Assembly (NCBI GenBank): GCA_965178125.1
Contig: OZ237764.1
Span: forward strand, 682,001-746,000
DNA from: Bilabrum cf. latius
Taxonomy: Eukaryota
DNA length: 64,000 bases
Direction: 5' to 3'
Part shown: one piece after another, positions 12,538 to 30,349 of the stretch
How positions within the stretch are numbered: position 1 is the first letter of the stretch
Layout: the number at the start of each line of letters is the position of its first letter
Translations under genes and position numbers: made by a program
Notes under the pieces: generated by a model
What the model was told of the DNA's origin: nothing
The model's database searches: none
Seen by the model: the letters and a program-made list of their open reading frames with translations, nothing else

Positions 12538-15408
12538 TGGGACCGTGAGCGGATCCACCTGAAGGTTCACGAAGACCCGCTGGCATTCACGCCACGCAAG
12601 TACTTCGACAAGGTGCCTCGCTAGACTGCAACACTGCGGACTCGGCGGGAGGTTCTGTTTGGCGGCCGCACACCGAGGAAGGCCCCGTCCCTTGCCGAGT
12701 TCAAAGCCCTCCCACGAGTCGAGCGTGTACTGGCAGCACTGAACTATGGTTGCCCCCTAGCCATCGTGGACGAGGTGCCCAAAGAGCACGATCTAGATTA
12801 CAAGGACCGTAAGCTGTCTCCGGAAGAAAAGTGGGAGATCGCCTGCGAGATCGGGCGCTCCATGCGGGCTGGCGAGCGTGACTTCGTGTCACCCAAAGAT
12901 TTCGACACAGCCCGGGCCCGGCCGCTGGTGATCCCCAAGAAGGACTCGACAAAGCTACGGTTCCTTCAGGACTCCTCACTCAAGGTGAACGGCCAGCGTA
13001 CCGGTCTGAACAAGGCCATCGACTACAGTGCAGCCACGCCTGTGCAGCAGACGAGCAGCATGGACGTGCTGCGCTCGGCAGCCGCAGCAGTTCGATCCTG
13101 CCCCAAGCGTGCCAGCGGTTACGTCGTCGACATTTCCTCGTACTTTCGGGTCCTGCCGGTGGCAGTGGAGGATCTCCAATACAACCTGATCAAGCTGCCC
13201 GACGGGCGCATCGTGCAAGATTTCAGGCTCTCTATGGGCAGCTCATCATCTCCCGCGTTCGCAACTACGATCAGTTCGGCTTTGGCCCAAGCCCTCGAGG
13301 AGCAGTCCATTGGCAGGGCCATGCGACCCGGACGGAGACACAAGCAGAAGCAACGACGCCGGCAGCAGCAGCACGCCAACGCCCAATCCAGCACGACGGA
13401 CCAGGCGCCCCAGGCGAACTCGTCAGCAACGTCCACCCCGCCTGCCGCTAGCACGACAACGGGACATGTCAAGACGGCCCAAGACTAGTCCCGCCATTGG
13501 TAGGTCGAAAATGAGGTGTTTGTAGATGACTTTGCCTGCCTCGGCGGAGATCACGAAGTCGATGCATGGGCAATTCGAGCCATGGGGCAGCTGGACTCCA
13601 CAAACTTCCCCGTCAGCATCTCGAAAGCATTGAAGCAAGGGGCCCCAGCCCCGGTGTTCGAGTACTTGGGCCTCACCTACGACTTGATCAAACACGAGGT
13701 GCGGTGCCCTAAGGACAAGGCCACCGACGTCCTGCGCAGACTGCACGAGGCACTCACGACGAAGGGGATGCTGCTGTCTAGCTTTGAGACCTTGGTCGGC
13801 AAGTTGTCCTTCCTGTCGGGCGCACTTTATGGTATGCGCGGTGCTCTACGTCCCCTGTATGACGCCAAGGGCTGGGCCCTTCACAAGTAGGCCAGCCGGT
13901 CACGACCAGGTGAGGTGTGGGTCCCCACCTCCTTCGTGTCCAAGGGTGGCTTCACCGTTGGGGAAATCCTCGAGGGATTCCAGGTGGCTATCCAGCGCAA
14001 AGGCGGGCGCAGTTTTCCGATGCGGAGCACCATTGACTGTCCCATCATTCGCACTGATGCGTCGGTGACAGGCTACGGCGCCGAGCTACTTCTCCACGAC
14101 ACGGACGGAAACATCACATCGCACACCGGCATCCACGGCACTTGGCCGCATCGCCTAGAGGCGAAGGATGTAGCGGCGGCAGAACTTGCAACATGTTTGT
14201 TGGCACTGGCGCATTGGCGACAGCACCTGCGTGGACGTGTGGTGCGTTTGTGGTGTGATAATGATGCTTCCGTGTAGCTGATACGCTACGGCAGACCCAA
14301 GAGCCACATCATGGCAGCCTTACTTCGCCCTATCTTCGTACTGCAGACAACGCAAGATGTGCAGATTCACGTGAAACACATTCCTGGCGAGGACAACATC
14401 GTTGCGGACGCTTTGAGCCGCGGCTCACAGGAGGCATACACGCACCTGGACGCGGTGTATCAGGTCGACTGTCCCACGCCGATCTGGAGGACCTTGTACA
14501 AGCACGACCATTTCACGCTGGTGGCCACTCTGGACTCAGTGGGTTGCGCACGGCGTGGGGGCACTTCGACAACTTCCTCACGTGGTACGACATCGACCGC
14601 AGCTTCATGGACGGGCATCTTCCAGCAGCTCGCAGACTCTTCGCGTTCAGGCTCAATGCAGCGCTCTCGAGATTCGCAGTCTTCTTAGGGGAATGTTCGC
14701 CTCTCAGTGGCGGCACCATCGCTACATACACCAGAAATGCCTAGCGAGTCGTCATCGAGTCCACAGGAGCGTGCGGCGTCCCACGGTCAAGCTAGCTCGA
14801 CAGCATCCTCCGGTACTACCACAAAGCATCGCCATCGGCGCACCCGTTGCGTCGATCTTCAGCCCCACTCCGCGCAATCCGACGGTGTTTCTCGACAGCC
14901 GGTTGCAGCACAACAGAGTAGGCTGCTCGGGCAGCTGTCTGTCTCTGCTTCTGTGGGGGCCTCCGGCTGGGAGAGCTCGTCGGTGCGTCCAGACGACAAG
15001 CCGGCCTCCAATGGCAGCAAGTGCAGTTCATCACGCGAGACGGACGCATCCATGGTGTTGCCATCCGACTGGGCCTCCACAAAGCCGACGGCCCAGCCAA
15101 GTTCTCCATCCAAGCCGCAGAGCCCATCGCAGTCCATTGCAGAGCCGGACGATGGGCAGTCACAGGCAGCAGGTTCTGCGGCGTGCGAGCCTTCGTGGCG
15201 TGGGCAGCAGCGAGCCACGCCCCAACTGCAGGCGCAGACGAAGACTACGCCCGGTAGCTGGCGCTCAGCTGCCCCACGTCAGGGCCAGTCTTCGTGGCGA
15301 ACACGAAGCCGATCGTCAAGGCGCACGTAGTACGGGCGCTCCGCAGCTTCTGCTCACGAGAAGTTGCAGGAGCGGTGCACGGACATTCCATCCGCATCGC
15401 GGCAGTGA
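12538..15408 (+). CDS. Reverse transcriptase-RNase H (5' truncated, TAG read-through)
   Basis: One frame through TAGs at 13486, 13501, 13888, 14275, 14686 and 15328: VIPKKDSTKLRFLQD, VVDISSYF, LSMGSSSSP, FVDDF, YLG; RNase H TDAS, AAEL, CDN, HIPGEDNIVADALSR. TGA at 15406. Confidence 0.9.
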
Positions 15409-15602
15409 TGTGTTTGGACCGTGCTGGGGTCGCCTTCGAGGTCATTAGGCGATTCGGCAGATGGAAGTCGGCATCTGCATGCGAGGTGTACTTGCGGGGC
15501 GTCAGGGAAGGCTTGCCTCCTCTGGAGCTCGGCGGCAGGAGCCTCGATTTGAACAGGCCAGTGTGGGTGCTGGCCAGCGCGCTGCGGCTGAACTTGGAGT
15601 GA
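14544..15602 (+). CDS. Tyrosine recombinase overlapping the RT/RH frame (start uncertain; frame open from ~14265)
   Basis: With TAG=Gln: GGLRLGEL (Arg), HGHSIRIAA (HxxR), FGRWKS, EVYLR (Tyr); TGA 15600-15602. Confidence 0.9.
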
Positions 15603-15774
15603 GCCACACAGCCGCAGCGTACAAGACATGGCGGTAAGATTTGGCGGAGTAGTGCACGTGCTCTTCCCAGCCCCGGTCAGTCCGGTCAAGGGTCGCGCAC
15701 AGGCACAGCTTTGTCAGGTCTTGCCATGTCTGATTGTTAACGAGACTAGGTTGCGCGTACACTCTGGCATCATG

Positions 15775-15926
15775 ATCCTAACGCCGGATGGGGTTCGGTG
15801 TTGATGCCAGAGTGGGAGCGCGTGAACGTCTCGTTGGGTTCCGATGGCGGTTGCGACCGGGAAGGTGCGACCAAGCCAACGGATTGCTTGCGATGACGCG
15901 CATACCCTCTCTGTGTTCAGGAGAGG
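15775..15926 (+). mobile_element. 5' fragment (~150 bp) of a third copy of the same YR element, fused to the truncated capsid gene
   Basis: Matches 12364-12515, then switches abruptly at GGAGAGG to minus-strand MCP coding sequence. Confidence 0.85.
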
Positions 15927-16933
15927 AAAATGCGAGAAGGAACGGAATTGGAAAGCTTGTTGTTGTTATTTACCAGAGTAGCCGTGGCTCCGCTTGGAAT
16001 GCCAGCACCATGTGCCTAGACATACTGCGTCATTTCAAAGACATCGTAGGAAACTTGCTTGGGTAGGGTAAAGCCGACCTTGGGGGTAAGCATTTCAAGC
16101 ATTAGCCTGGGGTTCATTACCTTGACATCCGAGACGCTCACGGAAGCCCCCTGAGGAAGAAAGTGAGACCAAAGGGTGTTGCGAAGATTGGCAAAGTTCA
16201 CATCTAATTCAAGGGTTTCCAGACCGAATAAGGCGGGTTGCTCTTCCTTGGTTTCATAGTGGAAAGGGGGAACCATAATACATTCGGCTACGGTGAACCT
16301 CACGGTGCGTTGCGCCGTGCCTGGACCTCCTGCTGCTGCGGCGGGAACTGGGGTATTGTCTGGGGTGTTTTCCAACTGGAAATACCCGACACCACGTCCT
16401 GGACTCTGATACATACCGTCAGAATACGACCGAAGAGGATTATTGGAAGCAGCGTTCATCATTGAATAACTGGGACAATTATCACGGCGATACACGGAAT
16501 TCAGGCAGTTTACCTTGTGGACTTCGTCGTCAAGACAGTGATTGACTACATCCATGATTTGAGCGTTATTCTGGGTAAAGCGAACGGAATCAAGCGTTGC
16601 GGTTTGGGTGGCGATAGAACGGTTCAAGGGGTATGCCCTGGGGGCGTAAGTGTCTTCTCCAAATGGAACAACTGTTGCTGCGTTCGTGTTGCTGAAGTCA
16701 AGAGTTAGTTCAAAGGTTGCGGACATATACCCACGGCGACTGACACCGACCCCTGAGGGAATGGAAAGCGACCAATTCACGCCCGAGGAATAGTCACCGG
16801 CAGACCCTGAAGGTGCGTAGGAACGGAAGGTTCGGTTGGCATATCCAGTATCTACGGCGTAGGGTTTGGCGGTGATGTCAAGGGAGGCGGGTTCAATTTT
16901 GACTGGCTCCAATGCGTGAATATTGAGGCTCAT
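15921..16933 (-). pseudogene. Virophage major capsid protein, C-terminally truncated (~335 aa remain)
   Basis: RAYPLNRSIATQTATLD...AQIMDVV...NNPL...ECIMVPPF...FGLETLELDVNF, then through TAG 16016 to NSVPSRIF. Collinear with Sputnik-type virophage MCP as recalled (RAFP, NNPL, PPF, SIPRKL). Confidence 0.85.
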
Positions 16934-17041
16934 TGTCTGTTATACTATACACTCCGTTTTAATTTCTGATATTCCTTTCACGAAATATCAAACAAATCAT
17001 TTCCAATGTTTTCCAATGTTTCCCAATGCTTTTCTAAAGGA

Positions 17042-18151
17042 TTACCTGTGTCGGGAAAACTTAAATTTCACCGATGCGGAACCATGCCGAAGATATAGGG
17101 GGTGCGTCTCTCCATAGGAATCTTTCCAATACAAATTAAACTGTAGCGTGTCAATACTAGAAGCGTTGAGAAGATCTATGGTGTGTTCTATCTTGGGCTG
17201 ATACTGGAGAACGGCCTGGTTAATCATCTGGGAATCATCTAGGACACAATCCATATCCACCAAAACACTTTCCGTGCCTCCTGTAGAACTAATGGACTAA
17301 TTCGTGGAAAATCCAAAGGGAGTTTTGGCTGATACCCCCTCGCTTCGCACTGGAAGACTGCTCGTTGTGAAAACGACTCCGCGGAACACCTGGAAATGTG
17401 CTAGACTGCCCCTATCCTGGGTCATTTTGAGTCTGTAAGGGGACTAGGGTATAGTTTCCGTGTATGGGATTGGTGCGAATCCATCATCATCGTTTTCCAC
17501 CAAATAGTTTGTGCCTAGGGATTTGAATAGAACGGAGGAAAACACGTCTGGGTTCGTGTCTTGGATTCGCTGGACTGGGAAACCGCTTAAAAGTTCTCCC
17601 AATGGTTCATTCAATACCAATCTGTATTTCTGGGAAGGTTGTCCTTCGTGATAGTTGGAATCCGCGAACAGGGAAAACTTTCCATCGTCATAGGTAAGCG
17701 TTGGCGTGGTTGCTACTGCTGACTAGGGAAACTTCTCCATGGTCTCATTAAAGAGACTGACAAAGTGTTCTATCGTGTATAAATAATAATATCTTGTAAA
17801 TGCCTGGGGGGACTACCAGCTCGGCTACGGTTCTGCGATTAACTAGGGTTTCCAAATGATGGGTTGCGTTCCAATCATGCTCCCGTCCTCCACGTCTTGG
17901 ATGCTGATTCTGTAGATGGTTTGGTCTGGATTCTTGCTAGAATTTGTGGAAAGGTCTATATCTATGTGGGGAATCCATACGGGAATTGTATTGGTGGATA
18001 TGGTGAATCGTTGGACGCTCAATTTGTAATCCTCCACATTTCCGCTTAAGATTGGCTTTTTCCTCACCTCGTTGTATTGGGCGGGCTGATAGGAGTCTTC
18101 ATTATTGCGTATATTTGCGTTGATATAGAAGTAGTCCGGTTGTCTAGACAT
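17042..18151 (-). CDS. Virophage minor capsid (penton) protein, 369 aa with 6 in-frame TAG
   Basis: YNEVRKKPIL...DYKLSVQRFTISTNTIPVWIP, YYYLYTIEHF, LNEPL, VVFTTSSLPV, YWKDSYG..P..L..GSASVKFKF. TAGs at 17843, 17825, 17813, 17723, 17444, 17297; TAA stop. Confidence 0.85.
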
Positions 18152-18381
18152 TTACTATACTATCACTTTTTTAGAAAAAACAATCCTTTTAAGAAAAGAA
18201 TAAGCAAAAGAGCGGAGCGCGCTTAAGCGCGAGCATCTTGACTAAAAACAGTGAACGGGAGGGGTTTTCAACCCTTTGGGAAATGGTCGGAAGTCTTGGG
18301 AAATGGATAGGAAACACTTGGGAATTGCTAAAAAAAAAACATTCTAAAGATATACTAAGTGGTTTTTCTCAAAAAGTAACT

Positions 18382-19503
18382 ATGGACTACGCTCTAAGTG
18401 ATACAGATGTAAGGAATTTGTGTGGGAATCCGCCCAGAGTGAAGGGGTTCAAGGCGTGTGCCGTCTCCATAATACCATATGAGAACTTGGAAAGAGTGGA
18501 AAGCATAGATAGAATCGTTTCACCGTCCAAGCCTTGTATTTTGTTGTATTAGGAAAGTCCTAATTCAGGTCATTGGGTTGCCTTGTTTCGTCGTGGGAAA
18601 ACCCTGTGTTTCTTTGACCCCTATGGCGTGAAACCTAATGCTAACGCCGAATGGGGTTCGGGGTTGATGTGGCGATGCGTTCGAGACTCGAACACAGGCT
18701 CCGGTCTACCAACGCGAGGTTGCAACCGCCAGTGCGACCAGCAGCTTGCGAGGCATTCCCTCGTCTCCTTCCTTAGGGAAGGGGGCGGGGCAGCGCGGCA
18801 GTGGCCGTTCCGGCTCATGCCGTTGTTTTGTATTTATGTTCGGTTTGGTGCTCACACGGGTAGTGCTTAACGCCGTGTCAACTATCGCGCGTGTCCCTGT
18901 GGGTCCGTTCGCCGACGGCGTTCGGCCTACATCGTGCATCCATCCTCGGCCTACTTGGCGCTCCAGTGGATCCGAACCAATATTTACTTCGATGTGATCC
19001 ATCTTTCTCGGCACATCGATGGGACTTCGGTGGCCGTTCCGGCTCATGCCGTTGTTTTGTCCCACCCTCCTCTCCCTGGTTTGGCTGATAGTGGAGCGGA
19101 CGCGCAACCGACGGTTCTGGTGCTTTCCAACCGACGTCGGCGCGCGGTCTGCTCAGATTGGCCATGCTTTGCCCATGTCTTGATTGAACTGGAGACGAAG
19201 TGTGTCGAGTAAGCATCGTTGCATCAAGATATGTAGCAGACTCTAATGAGTTCTAAAGTGCGGAAACGATTCTATGAAAACCCACACCTCGCTAGGCTCA
19301 TGTATGAATGCCCTTACTCTATAGATTACAATTAGTATCCTTTCCAAGCCGATGGAGACGACATAGCAACCTGTGGGAGACACTGCGTGGTCCGCCTTTG
19401 GAATCGTGGGAAAAGCACGGAAATGTATGGGAAATATGTGGAAAAGGTGTGTAAATCATAGGAAATAAATCCGGATGAATTAGTGTTCTTATTGACGACT
19501 TAA
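18382..19503 (+). pseudogene. Virophage maturation cysteine protease interrupted by a 585-bp insertion
   Basis: MDYALSDTD...ILLY(Q)ESPNSGHWVAL...FFDPYGVKP | DM...YN(Q)YPFQADGDDIATCGRHCVVRL...TAA; His, Asp, Gln and Cys catalytic residues present. Confidence 0.9.
18640..19224 (+). mobile_element. Non-autonomous 585-bp YR-element relative
   Basis: Begins GCTAACGCCGAATGGGGTTCGGGGTTGATG (cf. CCTAACGCCGGATGGGGTTCGGTGTTGATG) and ends GCATCGTTGCAT(C); 31-bp direct repeat at 18801-18831 and 19030-19060; removal restores the protease frame. Confidence 0.8.
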
Positions 19504-19577
19504 AGCGTTTTCCATTTTCGTCAAAACTATATGCGTCCAGTGAAACACTATTATCGTTATCTATACTATAGAAGGAA

Positions 19578-20489
19578 ATGCCCTCATTCACTTGGACTCA
19601 CACTGTAGACACCATACCAATTGCGAAAGACACAGAATAGAACAGAATATTGTTTCTAGATAAAAGGGACGATCACGAGACGAAGTTTGGCGACAACGAC
19701 GACATGACAGCGGAAGATTTAGAGCTCACGGAAGTTCTTAAGAATAAAGTTTCAATGAAGCGTTTGGATTTACTCCGCAAACATTTAATCCAGTCTGTAG
19801 AACCTTTGGATAGCGATATGAAGCGGTTCTATGACTTGGCGTAGGAAAAGAAGCGAAAGGAAGTCAGTCTGCGGAAAGGACAATTTGACCCAATGCCGAG
19901 TGGGAAAGGGCGAGAAGTCATATATATTACCGCTCCAAGCGGTGCGGGTAAGTCTACATGGGTTTCCAAGTATTCCAGGAACTATTCCAGACTTTTCCCA
20001 GACCGAAAAATTGTCTTGTTCTCACGCTTGGAAGACGATGAGGTGTTAGACGCGATCCCGTCTCTCGTGAGAATCCAATTAGATGAAGAATTAGTAGAGA
20101 ATCCCATTGACATTCACACCGAATTAAAGGACTGTCTGGTGATTCTAGACGATATTGACACGGTGAATGACAAGAAAATCCGTTTGGCATTGGAATAGTT
20201 GTAGGACGACTGTCTGTAGACCGGAAGGCACTCAAACACTTCTTGTTTGATTACTAGTCATTTAAGCACCAATTATAAGAGCACCAGGATAGTGTTAGCG
20301 GAATCCCACAAAGTGGTTATTTTTCCAAGGGCTTCCAGCGCTCACTCTTTGCGTTATTTGTTGAATAAATATGTTGGACTTGAGAAACAAGACATTTCTA
20401 AAGTGATGAAATTACCGAGCCGTTGGGTGTGTATCCATAGGAATTATCCTAGATATGTTTTAGGCGAGAGGTAGGCATACATAGTGTAA
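19578..20489 (+). CDS. A32/FtsK-HerA-type genome packaging ATPase, 6 in-frame TAG
   Basis: Walker A YITAPSGAGKS, Walker B LVILDDID, L(Q)TGRHSNTSCLITSH, RIVLAESH. TAGs at 19638, 19842, 20196, 20202, 20217, 20472; TAA stop. Confidence 0.92.
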
Positions 20490-20496
20490 AAGCTTT

Positions 20497-20964
20497 TTAA
20501 AATAAATTTTGCTCCTTGACATATTTACTTGCTTGTGGAAGAGACATGGCAGTCTGCTCCATCACCGCCTTTACTACTTTATTCCTTTGCTTCATTTTCT
20601 CACTTATTTTCCTCTTACGCCCTTCCGTGGGCTTTTGGGAAAAGCTTTTACGTTTTCCAGAACCGCCCAGAGATAATCCACCGATATTGGATAAATCCTC
20701 TACTGGGGTTCGGAGATTGTCAAAACTGCCGACATGAAAAGGGGTTTTCTCTTGCTTTCCAGCCAGTTTCTTCCAGATCTGTTTGCCCTTGGCGACTACA
20801 CCTTGTCCCAAGGTTTTGAATATGAACTTCATCGCCTTGGCATCATCCCTCCATTTTCCGCCTTGGAGATTGGGGGACACTTGGGCGATTCTCTCGTTGG
20901 CGTCCTTCTGTTTCTGCTACACTAACTATGCCGTCCGCTTCCTAATGTATTCGTCAATATCCAT
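20497..20964 (-). CDS. Basic core (pVII-like) protein, 155 aa
   Basis: MDIDEYIRKRTA(Q)LV(Q)...LQGG...IGG.SLGG...RNKVVKAVMEQTAMSLPQASKYVKEQNLF; C-terminal motif recalled from virophage core proteins. Confidence 0.65.
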
Positions 20965-21174
20965 TATAGTATAGAATGAGCTTTTTTTAAAAGAAGTATG
21001 CTCTTTTATTGTTTTCCATTGCTTTCCATAGTTTTCCAAACATTTCCCTCTGTTTCCCACCCATTTCCAATCCACTTGGAAAACGCTTGGAAAACAAGAT
21101 GCTCGGCCTTTGGCCTCCGCTCTTTCCATTTTTTTCAAAAGGATCTTTATTAAAACGTAATCTTATAGTAAAGC

Positions 21175-22518
21175 ATGTCATTCCAATCACCAAACGTCCA
21201 AGCACTCATACAACAAGCCCTTGGAAAACAGCTAGACTGGGCGAAATTGTAGGATTTAGAAGCAAAAGACACCGCCGACCTGGAAAGCGAATACGCTTCC
21301 TATATTAGGTAGAAAAGTAAAGTAGAACGATTGAAAGAGAGTGGAAAATATGGAACGCCTTCTATGAGGAAGAAAGCGGACCAAACCAACTAGGAAATCG
21401 TGGGGAAATCCATCGCTGGGATCATGAAGGGAGTGGTTGAGGGAGAGCTGGGAAAAGCGCGGAAAGCGACGGAAGCTTTAAAACAGTTCTTGGGAAGCAT
21501 CAACGTGAGTGGGGAAATGAAGGAATACTTGGGGAGACAAATTGTAAACATAGCGACCCTTGCGAGGAAGGGATACGCAGGCTTGCGTAAAGTCCCATCA
21601 GAAGATATGAAAATCTTGAATAACCTTAGAGAAATTGTTTAGAGTTCAGCAGGATAGCCGCATACTATACCACGAGGACTTCGTGAAACACCAGAACGGA
21701 CTGTTGAGAGAACACCGCAGTTGCGAGAAGAAGAGGCAGAAAGGGACGACGAAGACAACGACGAAAGACCTGAGCCGACAAGAACGAACAGGCAATTGCG
21801 AACCATCCTAAAAGATATGGGAAAAGCAAATATTGATACAAGCCATTTACTTCGTTTAAGAGACGCAAAAGACCAGCGACTAGCAGCCCGCATTTGGGAC
21901 GCAAACAGAGACCAAGGGATAGAGTATGCTTTACAATTCGCCAGCGGCTCCACGGTATCACCAGCCAAAACACGAGCAAGACGACAAAAGGAAGCAGACA
22001 TTCCACTGGAAGACCCGCCAGCGCAGCCTCAACCACAAAGAAAGTCCCGACCACAGAAAGAGATAGAGAAAGATATGGATAACGCATATCAGGCAGGATT
22101 CATTACAGAGGATGAAGTTAGACTATTCCAGCGAATTAAAGATTCCAGCGACAGGAAGGTGGTGCGAGCGTTTTGGGATAGGCATAAAAATTTACCGCTT
22201 AAACGAGCCATTCAAATTGTAGACCCGCAGTTGTGGACTGAAGAAGAGGCGGAAGTGAGACGAATGTAGCGGGAGGGACGGGCTCCAAGTTTCGCATCAC
22301 CTATACAGAAAGGAGCCAAGAAAGGAGCCAAGAAGGGAGCCAGGAAAGGAGCCGTGCGAGGGCGCGGACGATTAAATCCATAGGAATCACACATTTTCCA
22401 GACCGCTAAGAATGTTTCCAAGAAGGTAAAGGGAGCGACCAAAGACATTCAAGACTAGGTTGCGGACGAAGTGATTTCTCTACTTAAATCTACTGCTATA
22501 CTATATAGCACAGAATGA
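21175..22518 (+). CDS. Hypothetical viral protein, 447 aa
   Basis: ATG 21175; one frame joining ORFs 21400-21642 and 21721-22269 via TAGs only; KGAK repeats; TGA 22516-22518. Confidence 0.7.
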
Positions 22519-22727
22519 CGGAAGAATGGAGTTACAATAAATACTATTACGAGAAAAATAAGGAACGCTTAAAGAAAAAGGTGGAGTGCGGGTGCGGTTC
22601 CAAAGTAGCTCGCTACAATTTGTAGCACCACAGGAAAACCAAGAAACACATGGCGTGGGAAACCGATGAAACCAAGCAGGAAATCCAACGACTCAAGGAC
22701 GAGTTAAAATGCTTGAAGCATGAATAA
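22515..22727 (+). CDS. Small zinc-finger protein (70 aa)
   Basis: YYYEKNKE...VECGCGSKVARYNL(Q)HHRKTKKH; one TAG lies between the Cys and His ligands; TAA stop. Confidence 0.75.
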
Positions 22728-22832
22728 AAGAGCTTTTTAGGAAAAACCTCAGCCAAAAAGAATTCAGAGAGTCCTTAAGTAGTTTTGGTTAAGCTTTTCT
22801 TAAAAGCTTACTATATATATATATATTAACGG

Positions 22833-24008
22833 ATGTCCGTCTCTAATTTATTAGTGCCGAACACATATAGGTTGTATTGTCAGAGTATAACACCCGTTGA
22901 AGGTGGTGGAGGTGGCGGAACACCGAGTCTATCAAGTGTTCTACAGGTGGGAAATGATGCTGGAAATACTACAATCACAAATGTTGCCCTTCCAGTCAAT
23001 AACCAAGATGTTGCTACGAAGCAATATGTGGATTCCACGAGTGGCGGAGGAGGTGGTGGAGGAGTAACACCAAACCTAACTGCTGTGCTGACACAAAGTG
23101 GAGACGCGGGAAACCTTACCATATCAAATGTAAGGTCTCTGCGAATGGCAACAGGAGGCAACGGGGAAATCCAAACACCTTTTTCGGGGAACGCCTCTTT
23201 GGGATACACCCGTTAGACAGATGAAAGTGCTTTGTTTGAATACTATGCGAACTATGGAACGGGAAGTAAGAACCCTATGACACGACTTTATACAGGAAAC
23301 GGGAACGAAGACGGAACGAACGCCGAATTTATGGTGTATGGGACAATTGAGTCTAACAAAGGGGTCATGGGGGGTATGACGCTCACAGGTGCGATTGACG
23401 GAGATAAACAAAGAGAACAACCCACCATCACACTTCAAACCACACCAAGTCCTCTCAAGAACCAAATAGAGGGAAGGAATACAAATGGAACTCCAGCAAA
23501 CAACTTCATTCAATTCTGGATTGATGATGGTAGTGGAAATCTGGTAGGCACAGCACAGATACGTGGAGATGGAACTATGTTCGTGTAGAATGGAGTTGTT
23601 CCTTTCACGGGAGCACACGTGGGAACGCTGGGAAGCGGTCCGAAACCAAAGATTGGGTAGGTTATGTCAGTAAGAACTGCGACGGTAAACGATGTGTCTA
23701 ATTGCGAGTTTTCATTCAGGGTTTGCGATCACACAAGCGTTCCATTTGGAGTCTTTAGCGGAGAGGGAAAGGATGGGGAAATACGGGTTAATTCCGTGGG
23801 AGAAGGTGCTGTCCTTTGTCTGCGAGATGACAGCGTTCCTATTTTGGCAGGGGACTATCTGTCTATTTCCAGAACGAAAAAAGGATATGTGGAAAAGTCC
23901 AGGAGTTCTCAATTTTCTAAATGGGTCGTTGGGAAAGCAATCGTAGATGTTGAGTGGGACGACGAGGAGGAGGAAAAGTTAATTCCAGTGGTATATTATT
24001 GCGGATAA
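22833..24008 (+). CDS. Fibre/spike-like protein with putative C-terminal intramolecular-chaperone domain, 391 aa
   Basis: MSVSNLLVPNTYRLYC N-terminus, poly-Gly linkers, repeated TPxLxxVLxxGxDAG, DVATKQYVD, FTGAH...YYCG-TAA; TAGs at 23214, 23586, 23658. Confidence 0.65.
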
Positions 24009-24042
24009 ACGAAAAAAGCGGAGATTATAGTATATACACAAT

Positions 24043-24822
24043 ATGAGTCTTTCCAACATCCTTCAAGACAACAATTTTGCCCTCAAGTGTGCGTCTCTTA
24101 CCGCCAGTCAGTCTCTGGAAACCCCCCAGAAAGTGTATGCGAGAGCATTAGAATAGACTAACAACGTTGGTGCCAATTGGATTTTTGATAGAAACAGTCC
24201 AGATGATAATGAAGCTATCATTTTCCAGAATCAACCTGAAGGACTTCACAAGTCCGTGAGTGTTTACGTGGGGTAGAACAGCGCTGCTGCGCCCATCAAA
24301 ATGACATCTGCGTATTTCACAAACGGGAACCCGCACACAGGAACGATTAGTGTGAATGGGTAGGTCATTTCTGATTCTATGGGAAATTTCACAGGGGCGC
24401 ACAGAGGAACTCTCCGGAAAGAGGACGAAGCATATGTTAAGAAGGGAATGGTTGTGGGGATTTCCAAAGCTTCCGTGGATGAGGAACGCCTGGAACGTTG
24501 TGAGTTTGAGTTTAAGATTGCCGACGCTGGAGATGTGCCGTTTGGAGTCTTTTCCAAGATAGATGAGACCGATGGGAAAGCAGTGGTATTTGGTCTGGGA
24601 GAGGGTGGGATTCGTGTCGCACAGGAGGGATCAAGTCCGCCTAAAGCAGGAGATTATCTAGAAGTGTCGGGAAAACACTCTGGGTATGCCGTAACGGCTA
24701 AGGAGCAAATCCTAGGGAAATCCACCGTCGCCAAAGTTCTCGCAGGTGTTTCCTTCTCCAAGTCCAAGAGTGACGGGGACATCACATACACCATCGCACC
24801 CGTGTAGTATCTGTGTGGATAA
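24043..24822 (+). CDS. Fibre-like paralogue 2, 259 aa
   Basis: MSLSNILQDNNFALKCASLT...FTGAH...CEFEFKIAD..DVPFGVFS...GEG...PV(Q)YLCG-TAA; C-terminal domain paralogous to that of 22833-24008. Confidence 0.7.
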
Positions 24823-24856
24823 ACGAAAAAAGCAGACACTATAGTATACAGGCAAT

Positions 24857-25381
24857 ATGAGTCTTTCCAACATCCTTCATGACAACAGTTTCGCCCTCAA
24901 GTGTGCTTCTCTCACGACTGAAGCAATCTATGGACTACAAGGAAAGGATTTGACGATTCAAACCACAAGGGCGGATTCTGGCGACGATGGATATGCTGTG
25001 GTGCTGAAAGCGTCAAATTCTACCACTACTGAAACGTGTGATATTCGGTTTGGAAATGGCGAGCTTGGAACAGCCTCGGCTCGTATTTACGCAAGGCAAG
25101 GCGGACAAACTCAACAAGATGACATAGATGGGTCGTATTTCCTTGGTGGGTATTGTGTTCTTTCCAAAGGGGGGGCGGGTCTTGGTCTTCCAGTAAGGAC
25201 TGCGACCTAGATTGGAGACTCCACGGATACTTGTAATAAAACAGGTCGTCCAGAAGACACAAAACGAGCGGGTGTGCTTCTGTTTAATTCTACAGATTCT
25301 ATTGTGATGGTTTCCGTAGGTGATGACTCTACGAGTGCTTGGAAGGAAGTGGGTGGAACAACCACCATAACACCATCATGA
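24857..25381 (+). CDS. Fibre-like paralogue 3, 174 aa
   Basis: MSLSNILHDNSFALKCASLT N-terminus shared with 24043; one TAG at 25208; TGA stop. Confidence 0.65.
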
Positions 25382-25475
25382 TGTATCTCCAAAGAACCCT
25401 AAGGGCTTTTTGTAGAATACCTATCCGGTAGTTCAATACAATCACTATTGTAAGGAAATCATTCTATTGACTCCT

Positions 25476-27320
25476 TCACTATAGGAACACCTTTTTCTTC
25501 GCGTGAGTAATCTCACAAGCCCCTTGAGCCTCTAATTTCCACTCTCCAAGGTTTTCCGAGAGCTTCAAGGGGATTTCCACATCGCTCACAAATCCGTCCG
25601 TATTCACATAGTGGATTCTATCTAGGTGCGGTTCTATCACCTTGGAAAGTTTCCGCCGACCAAAAGCTGTGAGGAACGGGCCCAGACGAGCATAGCAAGT
25701 TTTATACGTGTATGTTTGTGTCGTTAGAATGCCTTTTACCCTTCTTCCACCGTCCTGAATGAAGGCGTCTTTAAGCGTTCTGAAGTCCACAACTTCGTCG
25801 TCGCTGGAAATTGTCTAAACTACCTAGTTTTTCTAGCACAACGCACCCCACACGGAGTTAAGTAGTTGTTTTGCTGTTTTAAATCCTTTCTTTTTATATC
25901 CAAAGAGTCTCTCCACCAAACCCTTGAAGAGACTGACTGCCTTAATACGCTTGTGCTTTTCGTAGATGAGGGCGTTCGCCTGACCGTCCTGAATGATGGA
26001 AAAGGTCGCCCCTGTTTCCTACGCCCTTACTATATCGTGGTGAGTCCAATAATTGTTTTTGCGTGGCTGGATAAGCTTGGGATTTAGGTGTTCCACCTTT
26101 ACCCTGTAAATCCCGAATTTCCAACCGAAGTCCTCTGGGGTCTGGGAAAGAGTCTGGAAATCTCCGGAAAGGATTGGAAACTACATCTATGACTTCAACA
26201 TGCTTGGATAGAAGCTGTTCATGTCATATTGATATGCTTTCTCCAGTTTCGTGTCGTTGTTCGCCCAGTTCAGTCCGCCCCCTGATGCCTTGGAAATCCA
26301 CTCCGCCTCTTTGCGCCCCAAAGGCTCGGCTGGGAAAAGCTTGGAAAACTTGGAAAAGTAATGCTTTACGTAGTAGGAAGGTCTATATCCATATTTAGAT
26401 AGATCCATATACCCACCAGTCTCTTGAGAGAGTGTCTCGGCGTCCTCGTGGATTCGCCTCCAGGTCGGTTCTAGGTCTTCCTCTACAGAGACTTTCCAAA
26501 GACTCTTTGTTTGTATATCTGTTCTTAATCGTGATTCAATATGTCTAGTTGCTCCGTCATACATGATATATTCGCTTTCCGCCTTTTTCCAGTAGGTGAT
26601 TAGGCGAACTGACTCCTTCGTGGGAATACACATTAAATCTTTCTGGGATCCTGGGGAAATGAACTCGTAATGTCCGTTTGTAAGGGAGATGTTCGCCAAG
26701 GGGTCGTAAGACTTTCCAGATGTGTAGGAAAAGTCTCCAGTCAGATGAATACGGATCTTCAGATAATCCTCTACCTCGGGAATTCTCTTGTAGTGGATTG
26801 GTTCGCTCCGTCCTAGGTTCAGTTGGGACTTTAGCTGGGCGGGAGAAATCCTATGGAAACCACTTTTATACTTGCCATTTACCTTCTTGTTTCCTCTAAA
26901 TCCTACTTGGAAGGGAAAAGCCTTCTTTAAGGCGTTATACAGACAGTCGTTATTCTCGTCCTTTCCGCCCCTCGGATTGTCCTTGGGAAGCAAAAGAAGT
27001 TCAAATGTGTTTAGTCTGCGGTGTTCCTATTCATCTACATCCTCGTCTTCATATCCCTTCCACAGAGAGGTAGTTTCCTTCAAGTCTTCCGTGGTGATCC
27101 AAGCACTCCTTGTCCGCCACCCTTCTTCCACAAAATTGAGGTTTATCTTGAACTTGTATCCGTCAAAGGGATTCTCTCCGTCCTCGTCGTAGTCCTTGAT
27201 AAAATCCATCACATCCTTTACAGTGATTAGCTCGTCCGCATGGAACCTAACGCTCCAAATTGGAACGCCGTTGAGTCTCAAGTTGGTCCTCTCGGGTTCG
27301 CCGAAATCAATCTCAACCAT
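25476..27320 (-). CDS. Family B DNA polymerase (protein-primed type), 614 aa
   Basis: Motif A GG...YQYDMNSFYPS, motif B AKQLLNSVWGALC(Q), motif C YVNTDGF, LGEWKLE; one frame via TAGs; ends TAG-TGA. Confidence 0.85.
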
Positions 27321-27373
27321 TCTAGAGTATATAATATACTATAGACTACCAAATTATACTTAATGTATGAGCC

Positions 27374-29056
27374 TCACGCCTCGTCAATTTTACACAGAGA
27401 CAGTTTCAGAGATTTCCCTCGCTTTCCATGTGGTTTTCCTTTGGGTTTTGGTGGGTTTTCCATCATCCATGCGGTGATTGCTACACATGACTCGGCCGAG
27501 AGTTTCCTCTATGTTTTCCTGTGGAAAAGCTAATTGTCGTCCATTTCCCTCTCCAGTTCCAACTCTTCTATGCGTTCCGTTTGCTCCTGTAGTTTCTTCT
27601 ACATTTCCTATAGTTGTTCTCGTAGCAGTTCCACCTCGGTCTTGGCTTTCTCTACCTCTGCTTCTTGGCGGAGAGCTTTGAACTTCTTCCGAAACCCTTC
27701 CAATAGGTCTTCGTGCTTAACATTGAACTCTTGTTTTCTCTGTGAGTTCATCGTGGAATACACACCTACTTCCGCCAACTGTTCCTTAATCTTAGGCGTG
27801 GAGAGGTTCTTGATTTGTCCCTTCAGTTCGTCCTTTAGGTAGTTGCGGAAGGCCATCACGGAAATGTGGAAATCTTTTCTCTCGTCCAACCACTCTTCCT
27901 TTAGCGTCCGCAGGATAGGGTGTGCCCCTTGTAAAATCCCCTTATGGAAATTCTAGGATTTCGGAGCGTATAGTCCCTTGAACTCGGGTGAGTCGTCGTA
28001 AACTTTCGCGAGGTATAGGAAGAACGCCCTCGCCACCTCTTTGCTCTCCGTTGCTTCCTTGAGTTTCTTAAAGTATTCCTTGTCGCCTTTCCTGGATGTG
28101 TTTACATCCAACACGCAATATCTGCGGATTTCCTCTGTAATTTTGATGGGTGCGTCGTTCGTGTCAATGATGAGGTTGAAGGTGTTGGGACGGCTCTCGG
28201 TCTTGACGAATTTCTCATTACAGGAAAAGGTCTTCTCGGTGATTAGATTGCGTAGGGTCGCCTACATAGCGTTCCATCTAGTATTGGAAGCTTTTGGAAT
28301 CTCGTTGAAGTTCACAAGTAGTTTTCCATCTAGGATAGAGTTGAAGGCATCGGGCTGAAGCATGGCGTTCGTGAGCGTCTGGAGCGTCAGGGTGTATCCA
28401 AGGAGTTTTCTCATAAGGAACGTAATGATGATAGATTTACCAGTTCCCTACGGAGACTTTAGATACAGGGCGGTCTGAAGTTTTTCCCCGCCTACAATCA
28501 CGTGTGCCAGCCACTTCATCACGAAGTCAAACTGGGTGTCGTCCTCGCTCGTCCAGACCTTGTGGATATGTTCGGAAATACGAATCACGCCTTCCCGTGC
28601 GTCTTCAGGCACGTCTTCTAGGTTTCCGCAGTTTTCCCGAGTCATCAGGGGTTTTCCCATGAGGTTAATCGTTTGCTTCTCGTAGTCCACAGTGGGTGCG
28701 TTGAATCGTCTCACCACCCGAAAAACATCTGTGTTCTCGTTAAAGAACCAATCACGAGCAGACCAATCCTTCACCTTCCTATTGTTTACCATTCGGTAGA
28801 TACAGTGTCCGCCAATTAGGTAGTTCTCGCTGATGTTTCGGTTCGCCAAGAACTACCAAACTGGTTTCTAGGGATTCTCGTCGGAAATGTTCTAGCGGTT
28901 CAGTTCATCCCCCTAGAGGAAATACACGCCTCCACCTTGGTCGTGGGTGCGGTAGAAATATTGCTGAATGTATTTGATACAATCCTCCTGATTTCCAGTA
29001 TCACAGAGTTGCTTGAGGGTTCTGGCGGAAAAGGCAACGGTTGGCATCTGACACAT
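27374..29056 (-). CDS. SF3/D5-like helicase, 560 aa
   Basis: FVMKWLAH...LYLKSP(Q)GTGKS (Walker A), FNSILDGKLLVNFNE (B), NLIIDTN (C), RRYCV; TGA 27374-27376. Confidence 0.88.
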
Positions 29057-29269
29057 TTTTCTGTTGGTTATACTATATACTACCAAAATATACTTAAGTG
29101 CTGACGCGTCAATTTTCCAGAGAGTCATCGGAGACATTTCCAGAGATTTCCAAGAGGTTTCCAGAGATTTCCAAGAGATTTCCATAGCTTTCCAACGATT
29201 GGAAAAATATAGGTAGTGCGTTAGTCTTAAGGTATGGAATTTTCCCCACTCATCTTCATTGTTCGCCAC

Positions 29270-30349
29270 TTATGTCAGGTCTATTGGGGCTATCCCAAAC
29301 TCCGCTGGAAGTTGCTTTTTGGCGTCTTCTAGGGTTTCCCACGTCCAATCCTTTTCGTTTGGAAGACCGTCCCATTCCACTTGGACTCTCGTTGGTTCTC
29401 GGGTATGGACTTTCTTCATATCCTTTCTGCGGATTGCCTTGGTGTTGTGGAGCTCATCGTCGTCAATTATCTATAGTTCTTCCTTTGTGTAGGCTACTTT
29501 GTGTTTCTAATCCACGACATACAAAGGGGGTTGCCCTGGTCGCAGAAGCACCTTGGTAATTTGTCGCTCCGTCGGGTCGTAGCGTAAATCACTGGCTCTA
29601 AATGAACCCATGAGTTTCTTGGAGAGTTTGTAGGCCTCTCTAGGTTCTTCCAATGGAATCCTAACCATTGTTCCCTTTTCCAAGATATCGCAAGCCTTTC
29701 CCCTACAGTGGGTCGCTCCAAAGTCAGTCGTGGGAATTGGTGGGTTTTCTTTGAGTTTCTCTTTCTGGAATTCGTTGTAATCATTGACAATCGTAGGGAC
29801 TAAATCCAACCATCGTCGCTCCACTTTTCCCTTGGCTATTTCCTCTACATTCTGGACGGAATTGATGACGATTCCAAACAGCTTGTTAAGGTTTTCCACC
29901 ACGGCCTGTTGTTTGTGTCGCCCTGGCTTGTTTCGGCGCACGTAAATAGGCCTTTCCTATTCTTGTAGGTGTCTTGCCAATTCGTTAAATTCATTTCCGT
30001 TGTCTATTTCTAGCCTCACGGTGGGTTGCTAGACATTTCCCCGCATGAATATCTAGAGAGCTTTTTCATAGGTTTCTTTCTGGGTTTTCTTCTATAGTGG
30101 TTCTGCGTCTATTAATTTGGTGTGTAAATCCACAGCAGTTAAAAGGTATTTATATCCTTGGTCGTTCGGCAATTGGAGTAAATCCATCTGAACGACTGCG
30201 TTTGGCTGCGGGACGTTCACCTTGGGTCTGTTCTTGCCCTTGGGTTTCTTTGGGCGTTTCATTAAATTGCGGATTCTAGAGTCCTGAGGTATGTGAACCC
30301 CTTGGAGAACATATTGGAGAACATTTGGGTATTCCTTAATGATTTCCAT
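29270..30349 (-). CDS. Second rve integrase with degenerate chromodomain (part B), 359 aa
   Basis: QMDLLQLPNDQGYKYLL...EIDNGNEF...QQAVVE; CRGKACDIL; FRASDLRY; VEWDGLPNEKDWTWE; collinear with 5135-6208; TAA stop. Confidence 0.9.

What the first reader, a model, noticed from the sequence alone, without database searches (positions are those of the whole stretch)
15921..30349. Endogenous virophage gene set recoded to TAG=Gln
Seen: all four virophage morphogenesis genes (MCP, penton, Cys protease, packaging ATPase) plus PolB, SF3 helicase, integrase and fibres contain in-frame TAG, with no internal TAA/TGA or frameshift in the frames I traced. TAG falls where Gln is expected: SP(TAG)GTGKS, LNSVWGALC(TAG), and KEEL(TAG)IIDD aligning to KEEIQRVDD of the other integrase. 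Inference: this virus is adapted to a UAG=Gln host, could not be expressed in standard-code hosts, and would be missed by standard ORF calling. Its helper giant virus may be recoded or TAG-avoiding.
Basis: partly seen in the sequence, partly recalled or inferred. Interest (0 to 1): 0.93.

Follow-up and report, generated by a model that had tools for sequence, protein, structure and literature searches.

The report
Virophage that reads TAG as glutamine
A virophage (a small virus that parasitises giant viruses) integrated in a protist genome, and its relatives in environmental metagenomes, use the stop codon TAG as glutamine as the host does, so standard gene finders cut their genes into pieces.

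Summary
The core of the finding holds. Window 15.9-30.3 kb carries a Sputnik/Mavirus-type virophage gene set that is open only if TAG is a sense codon. There are 57 in-frame TAG, no internal TAA or TGA, and the genes end in TAA or TGA. TAG behaves as glutamine in three tests: comparison with orthologues, profile log-odds, and host paralogues that differ CAG<->TAG. Host genes and nested retrotransposons also carry in-frame TAG.

New here:
- Six metagenome contigs hold syntenic relatives (50-76% identity) with the same recoding, shared TAG sites and dN/dS below 1. This is a recoded lineage, not decay after integration.
- The element is larger than reported: 3170-32291, with perfect 1.16-kb terminal inverted repeats and a 4-bp target-site duplication.
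- This copy is dead. A Ngaro-like retrotransposon removed the C-terminal capsid domain, and a 595-bp insertion splits the protease. Other copies lack that insertion.
- A conserved TATAGTA motif precedes the TAG-using genes.
- A 5-kb low-GC module in the same element has no in-frame TAG and no TATAGTA motif, and probably arrived recently from a standard-code virophage.

The idea about the helper giant virus is untested. Verdict: a new variant of a known kind, with interest about 0.7.

The parts
3166..3169 (.). Left copy of the 4-bp target-site duplication, GGCA
   Evidence: Uninterrupted paralogous sites at 45314-45317 and 50478-50481 show the left and right flanks overlapping by exactly 4 bp.
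3170..5101 (.). Left terminal inverted repeat (3170-3670 plus 4444-5101), split by a 773-bp GC-rich multi-copy insertion at 3671-4443
   Evidence: arms 658 nt and 504 nt, reported 100% complementary. Searches show the right arm is continuous across the insertion point. One search gives GC 0.63-0.70 for the insert.
5135..6208 (+). int2: rve-type integrase with a chromodomain. Part of the TAG-free low-GC module ('B').
   Evidence: Pfam Chromo 7.5e-15. 35% identical to the other integrase, E 4e-67. 0 TAG.
6238..7311 (-). L363: unknown protein with a Rho_N/SAP-like N-terminus. Module B, 0 TAG.
7330..9102 (-). L593: conserved virophage gene of unknown function. Module B, 0 TAG.
   Evidence: Homologues in 70 IMG/VR loci, of which 34 also carry a Sputnik-type MCP. 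A relative 84% identical over the aligned 37% of L593 (P0191), called as 510 aa under the standard code.
9265..9705 (+). orf161, DUF5824. Module B, 0 TAG.
   Evidence: Pfam DUF5824 4.1e-6..
9769..11983 (-). R2: Ngaro/DIRS-like retroelement fragment (gag-like ORF with 5 in-frame TAG), inserted after codon 3 of the GIY-YIG gene
   Evidence: Repeats. Contigs of runs X1 and X4 join 9768 to 11984. The joined form reads in frame as MTSNQYIKGYIY....
11984..12361 (+). GIY-YIG nuclease gene body. Its start codon is at 9761-9763 and its 3' end is lost at R1. Module B, 0 TAG.
   Evidence: Pfam GIY-YIG 1.5e-6..
12362..15926 (+). R1: Ngaro/DIRS-like retrotransposon (RT/RNase H ORF 12532-15408 with 7 TAG; tyrosine recombinase ORF 14265-15602 with 4 TAG). 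It replaces the 3' ends of the GIY-YIG and MCP genes.
   Evidence: RVT_3 1.2e-5. Phage_integrase 4.2e-4, below Pfam's cut-off. Terminal repeats. Multi-copy depth and a deleted variant in the reads.
15927..16933 (-). Major capsid protein, N-terminal jelly-roll only (336 aa, then L-S-stop read from R1). 1 TAG.
   Evidence: Sputnik_MCP_1st 2.8e-23. 69% identical to the L006 MCP, which continues into the MCP_V20_C domain. Junction sequence.
17042..18151 (-). Penton (minor capsid) protein, 6 TAG
   Evidence: Pfam V18-19 8.2e-13. Sputnik 3j26_N 4.4e-11. 64% identical to L006.
18283..19503 (+). Putative cysteine protease, split by a 595-bp GC-rich multi-copy insertion at 18633-19227
   Evidence: Contigs of X1 and X4 skip 18633-19227 with 4 letters in between. 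That form gives a 209-aa ORF with 124 of 178 residues identical to the L006 protease, including GHWVAL and ATCGRHC. No Pfam family.
19578..20489 (+). Packaging ATPase (Walker A APSGAGKS), 6 TAG, of which 5 are shared with L006
   Evidence: 76% identical to L006. 40 homologues. Only sub-threshold AAA Pfam hits.
20497..22518 (.). orf210 (20497-21129, minus strand, 2 TAG) and orf447 (21175-22518, plus strand, 8 TAG). Unknown function, both conserved in L006.
22833..25381 (+). Three paralogous ORFs (391, 259 and 174 aa; 3, 4 and 1 TAG) with a shared N-terminus. Two end in ..Y.CG followed by TAA. 'Fibre' is unverified.
   Evidence: alignment. L006 has one orthologue at 58% identity. No Pfam hit. 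The fold prediction failed.
25476..27320 (-). Protein-primed family B DNA polymerase, 8 TAG
   Evidence: DNA_pol_B_2 6.9e-8. 55% identical to L005-L009.
27374..29056 (-). D5/SF3-type primase-helicase, 11 TAG. The likely start is M44 or M47, just downstream of a TATAGTA motif; the ORF is open up to 29185.
   Evidence: DUF5906 1e-15. 7780 homologues..
29270..30349 (-). rve integrase, 6 TAG
   Evidence: rve 2e-10. 50% identical to L005-L008.
31133..32291 (.). Right terminal inverted repeat
32292..32295 (.). Right copy of the target-site duplication, GGCA

Best explanation
Window 3170-32291 is one integrated virophage of the Sputnik/Mavirus kind, about 22 kb of viral DNA plus 7.1 kb of later insertions. 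It sits in the nuclear genome of a GC-rich eukaryote that decodes UAG as glutamine and keeps UAA and UGA as stops.

Shown:
- The core module (capsid, penton, protease, ATPase, pPolB, helicase, integrase and accessory genes) belongs to a virophage lineage that has evolved for a long time under this code. TAG makes up 27% of its Gln codons.
- TAG sites are shared with environmental relatives that are only 50-76% identical.
- Those relatives are under purifying selection.
- The element entered by one integration that left a 4-bp duplication.
- Retroelement insertions have since broken the capsid, protease and GIY-YIG genes. This copy cannot make particles, while other copies in the same organism lack at least the protease insertion.

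Inferred:
- Translation relies on a host tRNA-Gln(CUA) and an eRF1 that ignores UAG. No tRNA is encoded by the element.
- The rve integrase made the insertion.
- The TATAGTA motif in front of nearly every core gene is the promoter read by a helper giant virus, as in Sputnik and mavirus.
- The TAG-free, motif-free, low-GC module at the left end was acquired recently from a virophage that evolved with TAG as a stop.
For: Code:
- 57 in-frame TAG against 0 TAA/TGA in 12 ORFs, with terminators TAA (7) and TGA (5).
- In 4074 core codons, in-frame TAG/TAA/TGA counts are 56/0/0, while all three are common off-frame.
- TAG sites aligned to L006 pair with Q 14, TAG 10, T 5, E 4, K 4, A 3, N 3, R 2, M 2, I 2, D 1 and S 1, of 51. 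Ordinary Gln codons behave alike (33% Q, 7% TAG). No other residue pairs with Q more than 6.7% of the time.
- Log-odds over 15 TAG columns of 147 helicase and 40 ATPase homologues: Q +18.1, E +7.3, the rest negative. In the control every true residue scores itself highest.
- The nearest TAG-free ATPase homologue, P0151, has Q at 3 of the 5 TAG sites shared by the window and L006.

Host:
- LMBR1 matches Pfam at 5e-64 in one stretch spanning 4 TAGs.
- Host paralogues show CAG<->TAG twice and TAG=TAG once.
- The Ngaro ORFs stay open across 7, 5 and 4 TAGs.

Lineage:
- 6 metagenome loci were found, and L006 is fully syntenic.
- All 6 need TAG as sense, against 0 of 74 IMG/VR virophage-like loci.
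- TAGs are conserved, for example 4 of 4 in the helicase between L005 and L008 despite 140 differing codons.
- dN/dS is 0.11-0.54 in 10 of 10 pairs.
- TAG use is 0.70 of a synonymous expectation taken from TTG/CTG.

Virophage identity:
- Pfam.
- PDB Sputnik V20 at 2.8e-34 and the Sputnik penton at 4.4e-11.

Integration:
- Terminal inverted repeats.
- Duplication and empty sites.

Damage.

Motif:
- 14 TATAGTA in the window against 1.5 expected, all within 16943-30357.
- 9 lie within 25 nt upstream of core genes in the right orientation.
- L006 has 11 against 1.2 expected, in front of its genes.
Against: - No tRNA(CUA) is in the window or the loci, and the host genome was not available. The decoding machinery is therefore unseen.
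- No RNA or protein evidence exists that any TAG is translated.
- Among close metagenomic relatives, the few sites where TAG differs pair with CGG, TGG, TTG, ATG and others, and with CAG in only 2 of the pairs. The identity of the residue rests on the deeper comparisons.
- PolB TAG sites align with Q poorly: 0 Q and 1 TAG of 8 against L006.
- The protease, the ATPase and the 'fibres' have no family-level confirmation.
- The R1/capsid junction at 15926 was not shown to be bridged by a listed contig.
- The promoter role of TATAGTA rests on analogy only.
Confidence: 0.9

Rival explanations
1. The element is a decaying pseudogene set. The TAGs are nonsense mutations, for example C-to-T changes turning CAG into TAG, in a standard-code virophage.
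For: TAG often aligns with Q, which CAG-to-TAG decay would also produce. This copy really is damaged in three genes.
Against: - The same mutation pressure would turn CAA into TAA and CGA into TGA. Yet there are 0 in-frame TAA/TGA beside 88 CAA and 42 CGA.
- 10 TAG sites are shared with L006 at about 60% identity.
- The relatives show dN/dS of 0.11-0.54 with their TAGs kept.
- Host genes carry TAG too.
Confidence: 0.02
2. UAG is a sense codon here but encodes a residue other than glutamine, for example Glu, Lys or Leu.
For: Glu is second in the log-odds test (+7.3 bits). It equals or beats Gln in two conserved columns: helicase 246 (Q 66, E 66) and ATPase 214 (E 25, Q 9). UAG=Leu is known in one rhizarian (recalled; the abstract of PMC5304391 was only partly seen).
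Against: - Q leads E by about 11 bits, and Leu, Tyr and Trp are strongly negative.
- The closest TAG-free homologues have Q.
- Host paralogues differ CAG<->TAG.
- 14 of 41 non-TAG partners are Q against 4 E.
Confidence: 0.04
3. A standard-code virophage integrated and only afterwards picked up TAGs by neutral CAG-to-TAG drift as a resident of the recoded genome. On this view there is no recoded virus lineage.
For: Endogenous copies do drift with the host. The host uses TAG as Gln, so such changes would be silent.
Against: - Syntenic relatives on 6 metagenome contigs carry TAGs. Three of them end 213-243 nt before the integrase gene, and L006 has no GC-rich flank.
- TAG sites are shared across 50-76% identity.
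- The perfect 1.16-kb terminal repeats argue for a recent integration, yet TAG use is already near equilibrium.
- The TAG-free module in the same insertion shows that residence here has not been long enough to create TAGs.
Confidence: 0.03
4. The joining of the TAG-free left module to the TAG-using core is an assembly chimera across the multi-copy retroelement R1, not one element.
For: R1 is highly repeated (depth 300-2000 against 45-150). The left module's depth is about half that of the core. No listed contig was shown to bridge 15926.
Against: - The left and right host flanks fit one empty site to the base, with a 4-bp duplication, as seen in two uninterrupted paralogues.
- The two terminal repeats are identical.
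- A unitig runs from inside the left repeat into the left module (5072-8626).
Confidence: 0.12

Closest known systems
Endogenous mavirus-like elements (EMALEs) of Cafeteria burkhardae, with nested Ngaro retrotransposons (PMC8547959; passages read)
   Same: An integrated virophage of lower GC content in a GC-rich host genome. It has an rve integrase, pPolB, a primase-helicase, terminal inverted repeats and short target-site duplications (3-5 bp there, 4 bp here). GC-rich tyrosine-recombinase retrotransposons are inserted in it, and there are signs of modular recombination between element types.
   Different: No departure from the standard code is mentioned there ('genetic code' occurs 0 times in that text). 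Here every core gene depends on TAG=Gln. The capsid protein is much closer in sequence to Sputnik V20 (2.8e-34) than to mavirus (6e-7).
Sputnik virophage capsid (PDB 3j26; Pfam Sputnik_MCP_1st, MCP_V20_C, V18-19)
   Same: The MCP and penton match these families and chains.
   Different: Sputnik is not recalled to carry an rve integrase or pPolB (recalled, not tested). This copy lacks the second capsid domain.
Polinton-like endogenous viruses of Streblomastix strix that use the host's TAA/TAG=Gln code (PMC10120064; passages read)
   Same: An integrated capsid-encoding DNA virus that shares its host's reassigned stop codons, read there as a sign of long association.
   Different: That case is a Maverick/Polinton-group capsid and a code with both TAA and TAG reassigned. 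Here it is a virophage-type capsid, and only TAG is reassigned while TAA is a working stop. This case also has free-living relatives, a promoter motif and a TAG-free module.
Giant-virus metagenome genomes that annotate better under alternative codes (PMC13524828; passages read)
   Same: Points to giant viruses of hosts with reassigned stops, the kind of helper this virophage would need. Code 15 is among the codes listed in a figure legend there.
   Different: 'Virophage' occurs 0 times in that text. No link to this lineage was tested.
Bacteriophages using code 15, TAG=Gln (PMC9523058; search listing and start of abstract only)
   Same: The same codon takes the same new meaning in a virus.
   Different: By that abstract the phage code can differ from the host's. 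Here virus and host agree, and no suppressor tRNA is encoded.
Eukaryotes in which UAG alone is reassigned (PMC5304391 and PMC11687900; listings and starts of abstracts. The names Iotanema spirale = Gln and a rhizarian = Leu are recalled.)
   Same: UAG is decoupled from UAA, and UAA and UGA are kept as stops.
   Different: The host here is GC-rich (about 0.6) and intron-poor in this window. Its identity was not sought.

Membership tests
Virophage (Sputnik/Mavirus type) | Double jelly-roll major capsid protein of the virophage families | tested here: met
   The window has the first domain only (2.8e-23). The orthologue L006 has both domains (5.5e-26 and 6e-26) and matches Sputnik V20 at 2.8e-34.
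Virophage (Sputnik/Mavirus type) | Penton (minor capsid) protein | tested here: met
   V18-19 8.2e-13. 3j26_N 4.4e-11.
Virophage (Sputnik/Mavirus type) | FtsK/HerA-type packaging ATPase | tested here: inconclusive
   Walker A and B motifs are present, there are 40 homologues, and 36 of 70 virophage-like loci are hit. Pfam gives only sub-threshold AAA matches.
Virophage (Sputnik/Mavirus type) | Maturation cysteine protease | tested here: inconclusive
   The position beside the ATPase, the His and Cys motifs (GHWVAL, ATCGRHC) and 35 of 70 virophage-like loci hit all fit. There is no Pfam family. PDB gave only spurious repeat matches with 0 stretches. That these motifs define the family is recalled.
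Virophage (Sputnik/Mavirus type) | Replication depends on a giant virus | not testable with these tools
   The only hint is a conserved upstream motif.
Integrated EMALE-like provirus | rve integrase, terminal inverted repeats and a target-site duplication at a single insertion | tested here: met
Nuclear code with TAG=Gln and TAA/TGA as stops (table 15 pattern) | In-frame TAG in conserved genes of the host as well as the virus, with TAA and TGA excluded | tested here: met
Nuclear code with TAG=Gln and TAA/TGA as stops (table 15 pattern) | TAG columns specify glutamine | tested here: met
Nuclear code with TAG=Gln and TAA/TGA as stops (table 15 pattern) | TAA still terminates | tested here: met
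   7 of 12 genes end in TAA in tight gene spacing. The paralogues fib391 and fib259 end at homologous ..Y.CG followed by TAA, and the L006 orthologue ends its reading at the homologous ..YVCG.
Nuclear code with TAG=Gln and TAA/TGA as stops (table 15 pattern) | tRNA-Gln with anticodon CUA and an altered eRF1 | not testable with these tools
   No tRNA is in the window or the loci. No genome is held.
Ngaro/DIRS retrotransposon | RT/RNase H plus a tyrosine recombinase, with terminal and split repeats | tested here: inconclusive
   RVT_3 1.2e-5 passes its cut-off. The Phage_integrase hit, 4.2e-4 at 20.6 bits, is below the 27.1 cut-off. Repeats are present, but the A1-B1A2B2 layout was not worked out.

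The most novel reading that the evidence does not exclude
The element records gene flow across a genetic-code boundary inside one replicating virus genome. A core locked to UAG=Gln (56 in-frame TAG, with a TATAGTA promoter motif) is fused to a 5-kb module with no in-frame TAG. That module holds a second integrase, two SAP-like proteins, DUF5824 and GIY-YIG. It has 0 TAG where about 28 are expected, lacks the motif, and has GC3 of 0.20-0.33. It evolved with TAG as a stop and came from the standard-code virophage pool. If so, a reassigned stop codon acts as a one-way valve: TAG-free genes that end in TAA can enter recoded hosts, while recoded genes cannot leave. In that case, in-frame TAG content could date acquisitions and tie uncultured virophages, and their giant viruses, to recoded hosts.
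Probability: 0.45. Interest if true: 0.8.

Novelty: new variant of a known kind. Interest (0 to 1): 0.7.

Why it matters
Virophages, their giant-virus helpers and the host all share the host's ribosomes. A virophage lineage that needs UAG=Gln therefore implies a three-partner system living under a variant code, including a helper giant virus that must tolerate UAG read-through.

This gives a sequence-only handle for linking metagenomic virophages to a host group. It also shows that pipelines built on standard gene calling break these genomes into fragments. The protein database holds only TAG-to-TAG pieces, and the viral contig collection had no close relative.

The searches of the paper library found no report of a recoded virophage. 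They found only a hint from an ochre tRNA in one clade (PMC6905037, passage read) and the S. strix polinton-like case (PMC10120064, passage read). Supplementary files of these papers were not seen and could hold relevant cases.

The TAG-free module and the retrotransposon nesting add a second example of the virophage-plus-Ngaro association outside Cafeteria.

Tried and rejected
- Host genome: none is held.
- LMBR1 word-index search: no hit, so host lineage was not inferred.
- Single-protein scans of viral contigs with the ATPase and with L593 found no relative.
- The helicase alignment scan of viral contigs gave only relatives at 26-30% identity.
- tRNA scans: 0 genes in the window and in L005-L010.
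- Sequencing runs: no RNA holder is listed.
- Laid contigs cannot show expression. Parts without cover, and the unlisted R1/capsid junction, are left open. Depth ratios (left module about 45-52, core about 90-150, terminal repeat about 190-340 in X1 and X4) are only a rough hint that extra core-type copies exist.
- Fold prediction of the 259-aa 'fibre' paralogue from a 4-row alignment failed (mean pLDDT 28.1). No fold search was made, so 'fibre' stays unverified.
- The PDB search with the L006 protease returned only TAL-effector and WD-repeat entries with 0 matched stretches, which are spurious.
- P0001, first taken as an independent 64%-identical relative, is the L009 helicase fragment (99.6%). 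It is not counted separately.
- A paper search for the TATAGTA motif with 'giant virus' found nothing relevant.
- Searches for a named GC-rich UAG=Gln protist found none.
- dN/dS between the window and L006 was not used, because synonymous sites are saturated at 50-76% protein identity.

Full report
**1. What is in the sequence**

The GC profile shows a 0.43-0.47 block from about 16 to 32 kb inside DNA of about 0.6 GC. A second low-GC block (0.28-0.40) lies at about 4.4-9.7 kb.

Under table 11 the block at 16-30 kb has only short ORFs, the longest 305 aa. With TAG read as a residue it becomes twelve tightly packed ORFs of 174-614 aa. Making TAA or TGA sense instead does not have this effect. 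In 15900-30400, ORFs of 200 aa or more total 789 aa (standard), 5241 aa (TAG sense), 2157 aa (TAA sense) and 1832 aa (TGA sense).

The twelve ORFs hold 57 in-frame TAG and no internal TAA or TGA. Seven end in TAA and five in TGA.

Pfam identifies:
- the Sputnik-type capsid first domain (2.8e-23)
- the Sputnik penton V18/19 (8.2e-13)
- an organellar/viral family B polymerase (6.9e-8)
- a D5/DUF5906 helicase (1e-15)
- an rve integrase (2e-10)

The ATPase gets only sub-threshold AAA hits. The protease and the three 'fibre' paralogues get nothing.

**2. TAG is glutamine, and the host agrees**

A scan of metagenome contigs with the helicase found six loci from five data sets. L006 holds 13 kb of a 15-kb contig and is syntenic gene for gene: integrase, helicase, pPolB, fibre-like, orf447-like, orf210-like, ATPase, protease, penton, capsid. 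Protein identity to the window is 39-76%, and 50-76% for the named genes. All six loci are open only with TAG as sense.

I aligned ten window proteins to their L006 orthologues. The two shorter fibre paralogues have no separate orthologue and were left out.
- 51 window TAG sites aligned. They pair with Q 14, TAG 10, T 5, E 4, K 4, A 3, N 3, R 2, M 2, I 2, D 1 and S 1.
- The 42 aligned L006 TAG sites pair with Q 10, TAG 10, A 4, E 4 and singles or doubles of others, including one W.
- Ordinary Gln codons of the window pair with Q 33% and with TAG 7% of the time.
- No other residue pairs with Q more than 6.7% of the time.

A profile test used 147 helicase homologues (of 150 listed; three window-identical fragments were dropped) and 40 ATPase homologues. 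Over 15 usable TAG columns it gives Q +18.1 bits, E +7.3 and every other residue negative (L -34, Y -39, W -54). In the control each true residue scored itself highest.

The nearest full-length TAG-free ATPase homologue, P0151 (58% identical), has Q at three of the five TAG sites that the window and L006 share, E at one and V at one.

Results less favourable to Gln:
- PolB sites pair with Q 0 times and TAG once out of 8.
- Among close metagenomic relatives, the few sites where TAG differs show CGG, TGG, TTG, ATG and others, and CAG in only some pairs.

These are what single-step replacements at variable sites would look like. They add nothing in favour of Gln.

Host evidence:
- An LMBR1-like ORF matches Pfam at 5e-64 in one stretch across four TAGs.
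- Two host paralogues (656 aligned codons, 92% identical) differ CAG<->TAG at both sites where only one has TAG, and share TAG at a third. Both end in TGA.
- The retroelement ORFs stay open across 7, 5 and 4 TAGs.

No tRNA gene lies in the window or the loci, so the decoding machinery itself was not seen.

**3. A recoded lineage, not decay**

C-to-T decay would also make TAA from CAA and TGA from CGA. There are none in frame, beside 88 CAA and 42 CGA, in 4074 core codons, while all three triplets are common out of frame.

Ten TAG sites are shared between the window and L006, five of them in the ATPase. Between L005 and L008 the helicase keeps 4 of 4 TAGs despite 85 synonymous and 55 non-synonymous codon differences. 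dN/dS among the loci is 0.11-0.54 in 10 of 10 pairs.

I used the synonymous Leu pair TTG/CTG as a yardstick for T against C at the first codon position. By this measure the core has 56 TAG against 80 expected, which is close to equilibrium. The host-plus-Ngaro set has 22 against 46 expected.

Of 80 fetched loci, only the six metagenome loci need TAG as sense. All 74 IMG/VR virophage-like loci are well coded under the standard code.

**4. True extent and state of the element**

The element has perfect inverted repeats. The 658-nt and 504-nt arm pairs match at 4444-5101/31133-31790 and 3167-3670/31791-32294, and the ends are at 3170 and 32291.

The host flanks match two uninterrupted paralogous sites in the same window (98-100% identity). 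There the left and right flanks overlap by 4 bp, so the duplication is GGCA. The 29,122 bp between are therefore one insertion.

Four GC-rich multi-copy insertions lie inside it:
- 3671-4443, in the left repeat.
- R2, 9769-11983. It is absent from some contigs of runs X1 and X4. The joined form restores an in-frame start of a GIY-YIG gene.
- R1, 12362-15926. It carries RT/RNase H and tyrosine-recombinase ORFs.
- 18633-19227, in the protease. Contigs of X1 and X4 skip it, and the skipped form gives a 209-aa ORF with 124 of 178 residues identical to the L006 protease.

R1 abuts the capsid gene after residue 336. The L006 capsid continues into the MCP_V20_C domain and beyond 586 aa. R1 also removes the 3' end of the convergent GIY-YIG gene, which fits a deletion between two retroelement insertions (inference).

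This copy therefore cannot build capsids. The virophage-plus-Ngaro nesting repeats what was described in Cafeteria (PMC8547959, passages read).

**5.

First, the heptamer TATAGTA occurs 14 times in the window against 1.5 expected, with 0 of 100 shuffles reaching 14. All 14 lie between 16943 and 30357. Nine sit within 25 nt upstream of core genes in the right orientation and two more in the reverse orientation. L006 has 11 against 1.2 expected, again in front of its genes. By analogy with Sputnik and mavirus, whose genes carry their helper's late promoter (established knowledge, recalled), this is the likely helper-virus promoter.

Second, the left 5 kb has 0 in-frame TAG, TAA or TGA in 1577 codons, against 44 and 39 TAG in the other two frames. 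It holds int2, L363, L593, orf161/DUF5824 and GIY-YIG. About 28 TAG are expected by the TTG/CTG yardstick (P about 6e-13). GC3 is 0.20-0.33 against 0.37-0.59 in the core, and no gene there has the TATAGTA motif.

L593 has homologues in 70 IMG/VR loci, 34 of which also hold a Sputnik-type capsid gene. A relative 84% identical over the aligned 37% of L593 was called as 510 aa under the standard code. The simplest reading is a recent import from a standard-code virophage. An assembly chimera across R1 is the main alternative, which I put at 0.12.

**6. Comparison and verdict**

The element works like an EMALE/mavirus-type provirus, with a capsid closer to Sputnik's.

Use of a host's reassigned stops by an integrated capsid-encoding virus has one printed precedent that I found, the Streblomastix strix polinton-like elements (PMC10120064). 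Giant-virus genomes that annotate better under alternative codes have been reported (PMC13524828). Five searches of the paper library for a virophage with a variant code found none. The papers' supplements were not seen.

I rate it a new variant of a known kind, with interest 0.7. The helper-virus idea remains open.

Noticed in passing
window 38040-43400: An array of at least 43 copies of a 112-bp unit (mostly 94-100% alike). It is very A-rich and T-poor on the + strand (AT skew 0.5-0.58), so all three + frames are open for 4-5 kb. This looks like a satellite rather than a gene, since 112 is not a multiple of 3.
   Followed up: no
window 2700-3169 with 32292-34323; 44848-48294; 50012-51168: A host sequence family is present in three copies, 90-99% alike. 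One copy is the virophage's insertion site. The paralogues show more non-synonymous (55) than synonymous (31) codon differences, and both keep long ORFs with TAG codons.
   Followed up: partly
window 12537-15643: Contigs of all four laid runs hold a form of the Ngaro-like element in which 3105 bp of ORFs are replaced by 26 letters, at the highest depth seen (about 900-1300 in X1 and X4). This suggests an abundant non-autonomous or solo-repeat derivative.
   Followed up: no
window 18633-19227 and 15769-15800: The first bases of the 595-bp insertion in the protease gene resemble the terminal repeat of the Ngaro-like element (…CTAACGCCG.ATGGGGT…). It may be a solo repeat of a related retroelement.
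   Followed up: no
window 6238-7311 and 7330-9102: The two adjacent left-module genes share a 47-residue N-terminal Rho_N/SAP-like segment (57% identical) and then diverge completely.
   Followed up: no
L005, L006, L007 (first 213-243 bases): Three metagenome contigs end 213-243 nt upstream of the integrase gene. That could be a true genome end, with a much shorter terminal repeat than the 1.16 kb in the window.
   Followed up: no
L009 4056-6813: This lower-GC relative (0.35) carries two tandem 459-aa ORFs with one TAG each downstream of pPolB, where the window has its three fibre-like paralogues.
   Followed up: no
runs X5, X6 (organism B) on window 3143-3657: A second coded organism holds a contig that spans the left host/element junction without a difference. 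The same insertion, or the same repeated flank, therefore exists beyond the source organism.
   Followed up: no
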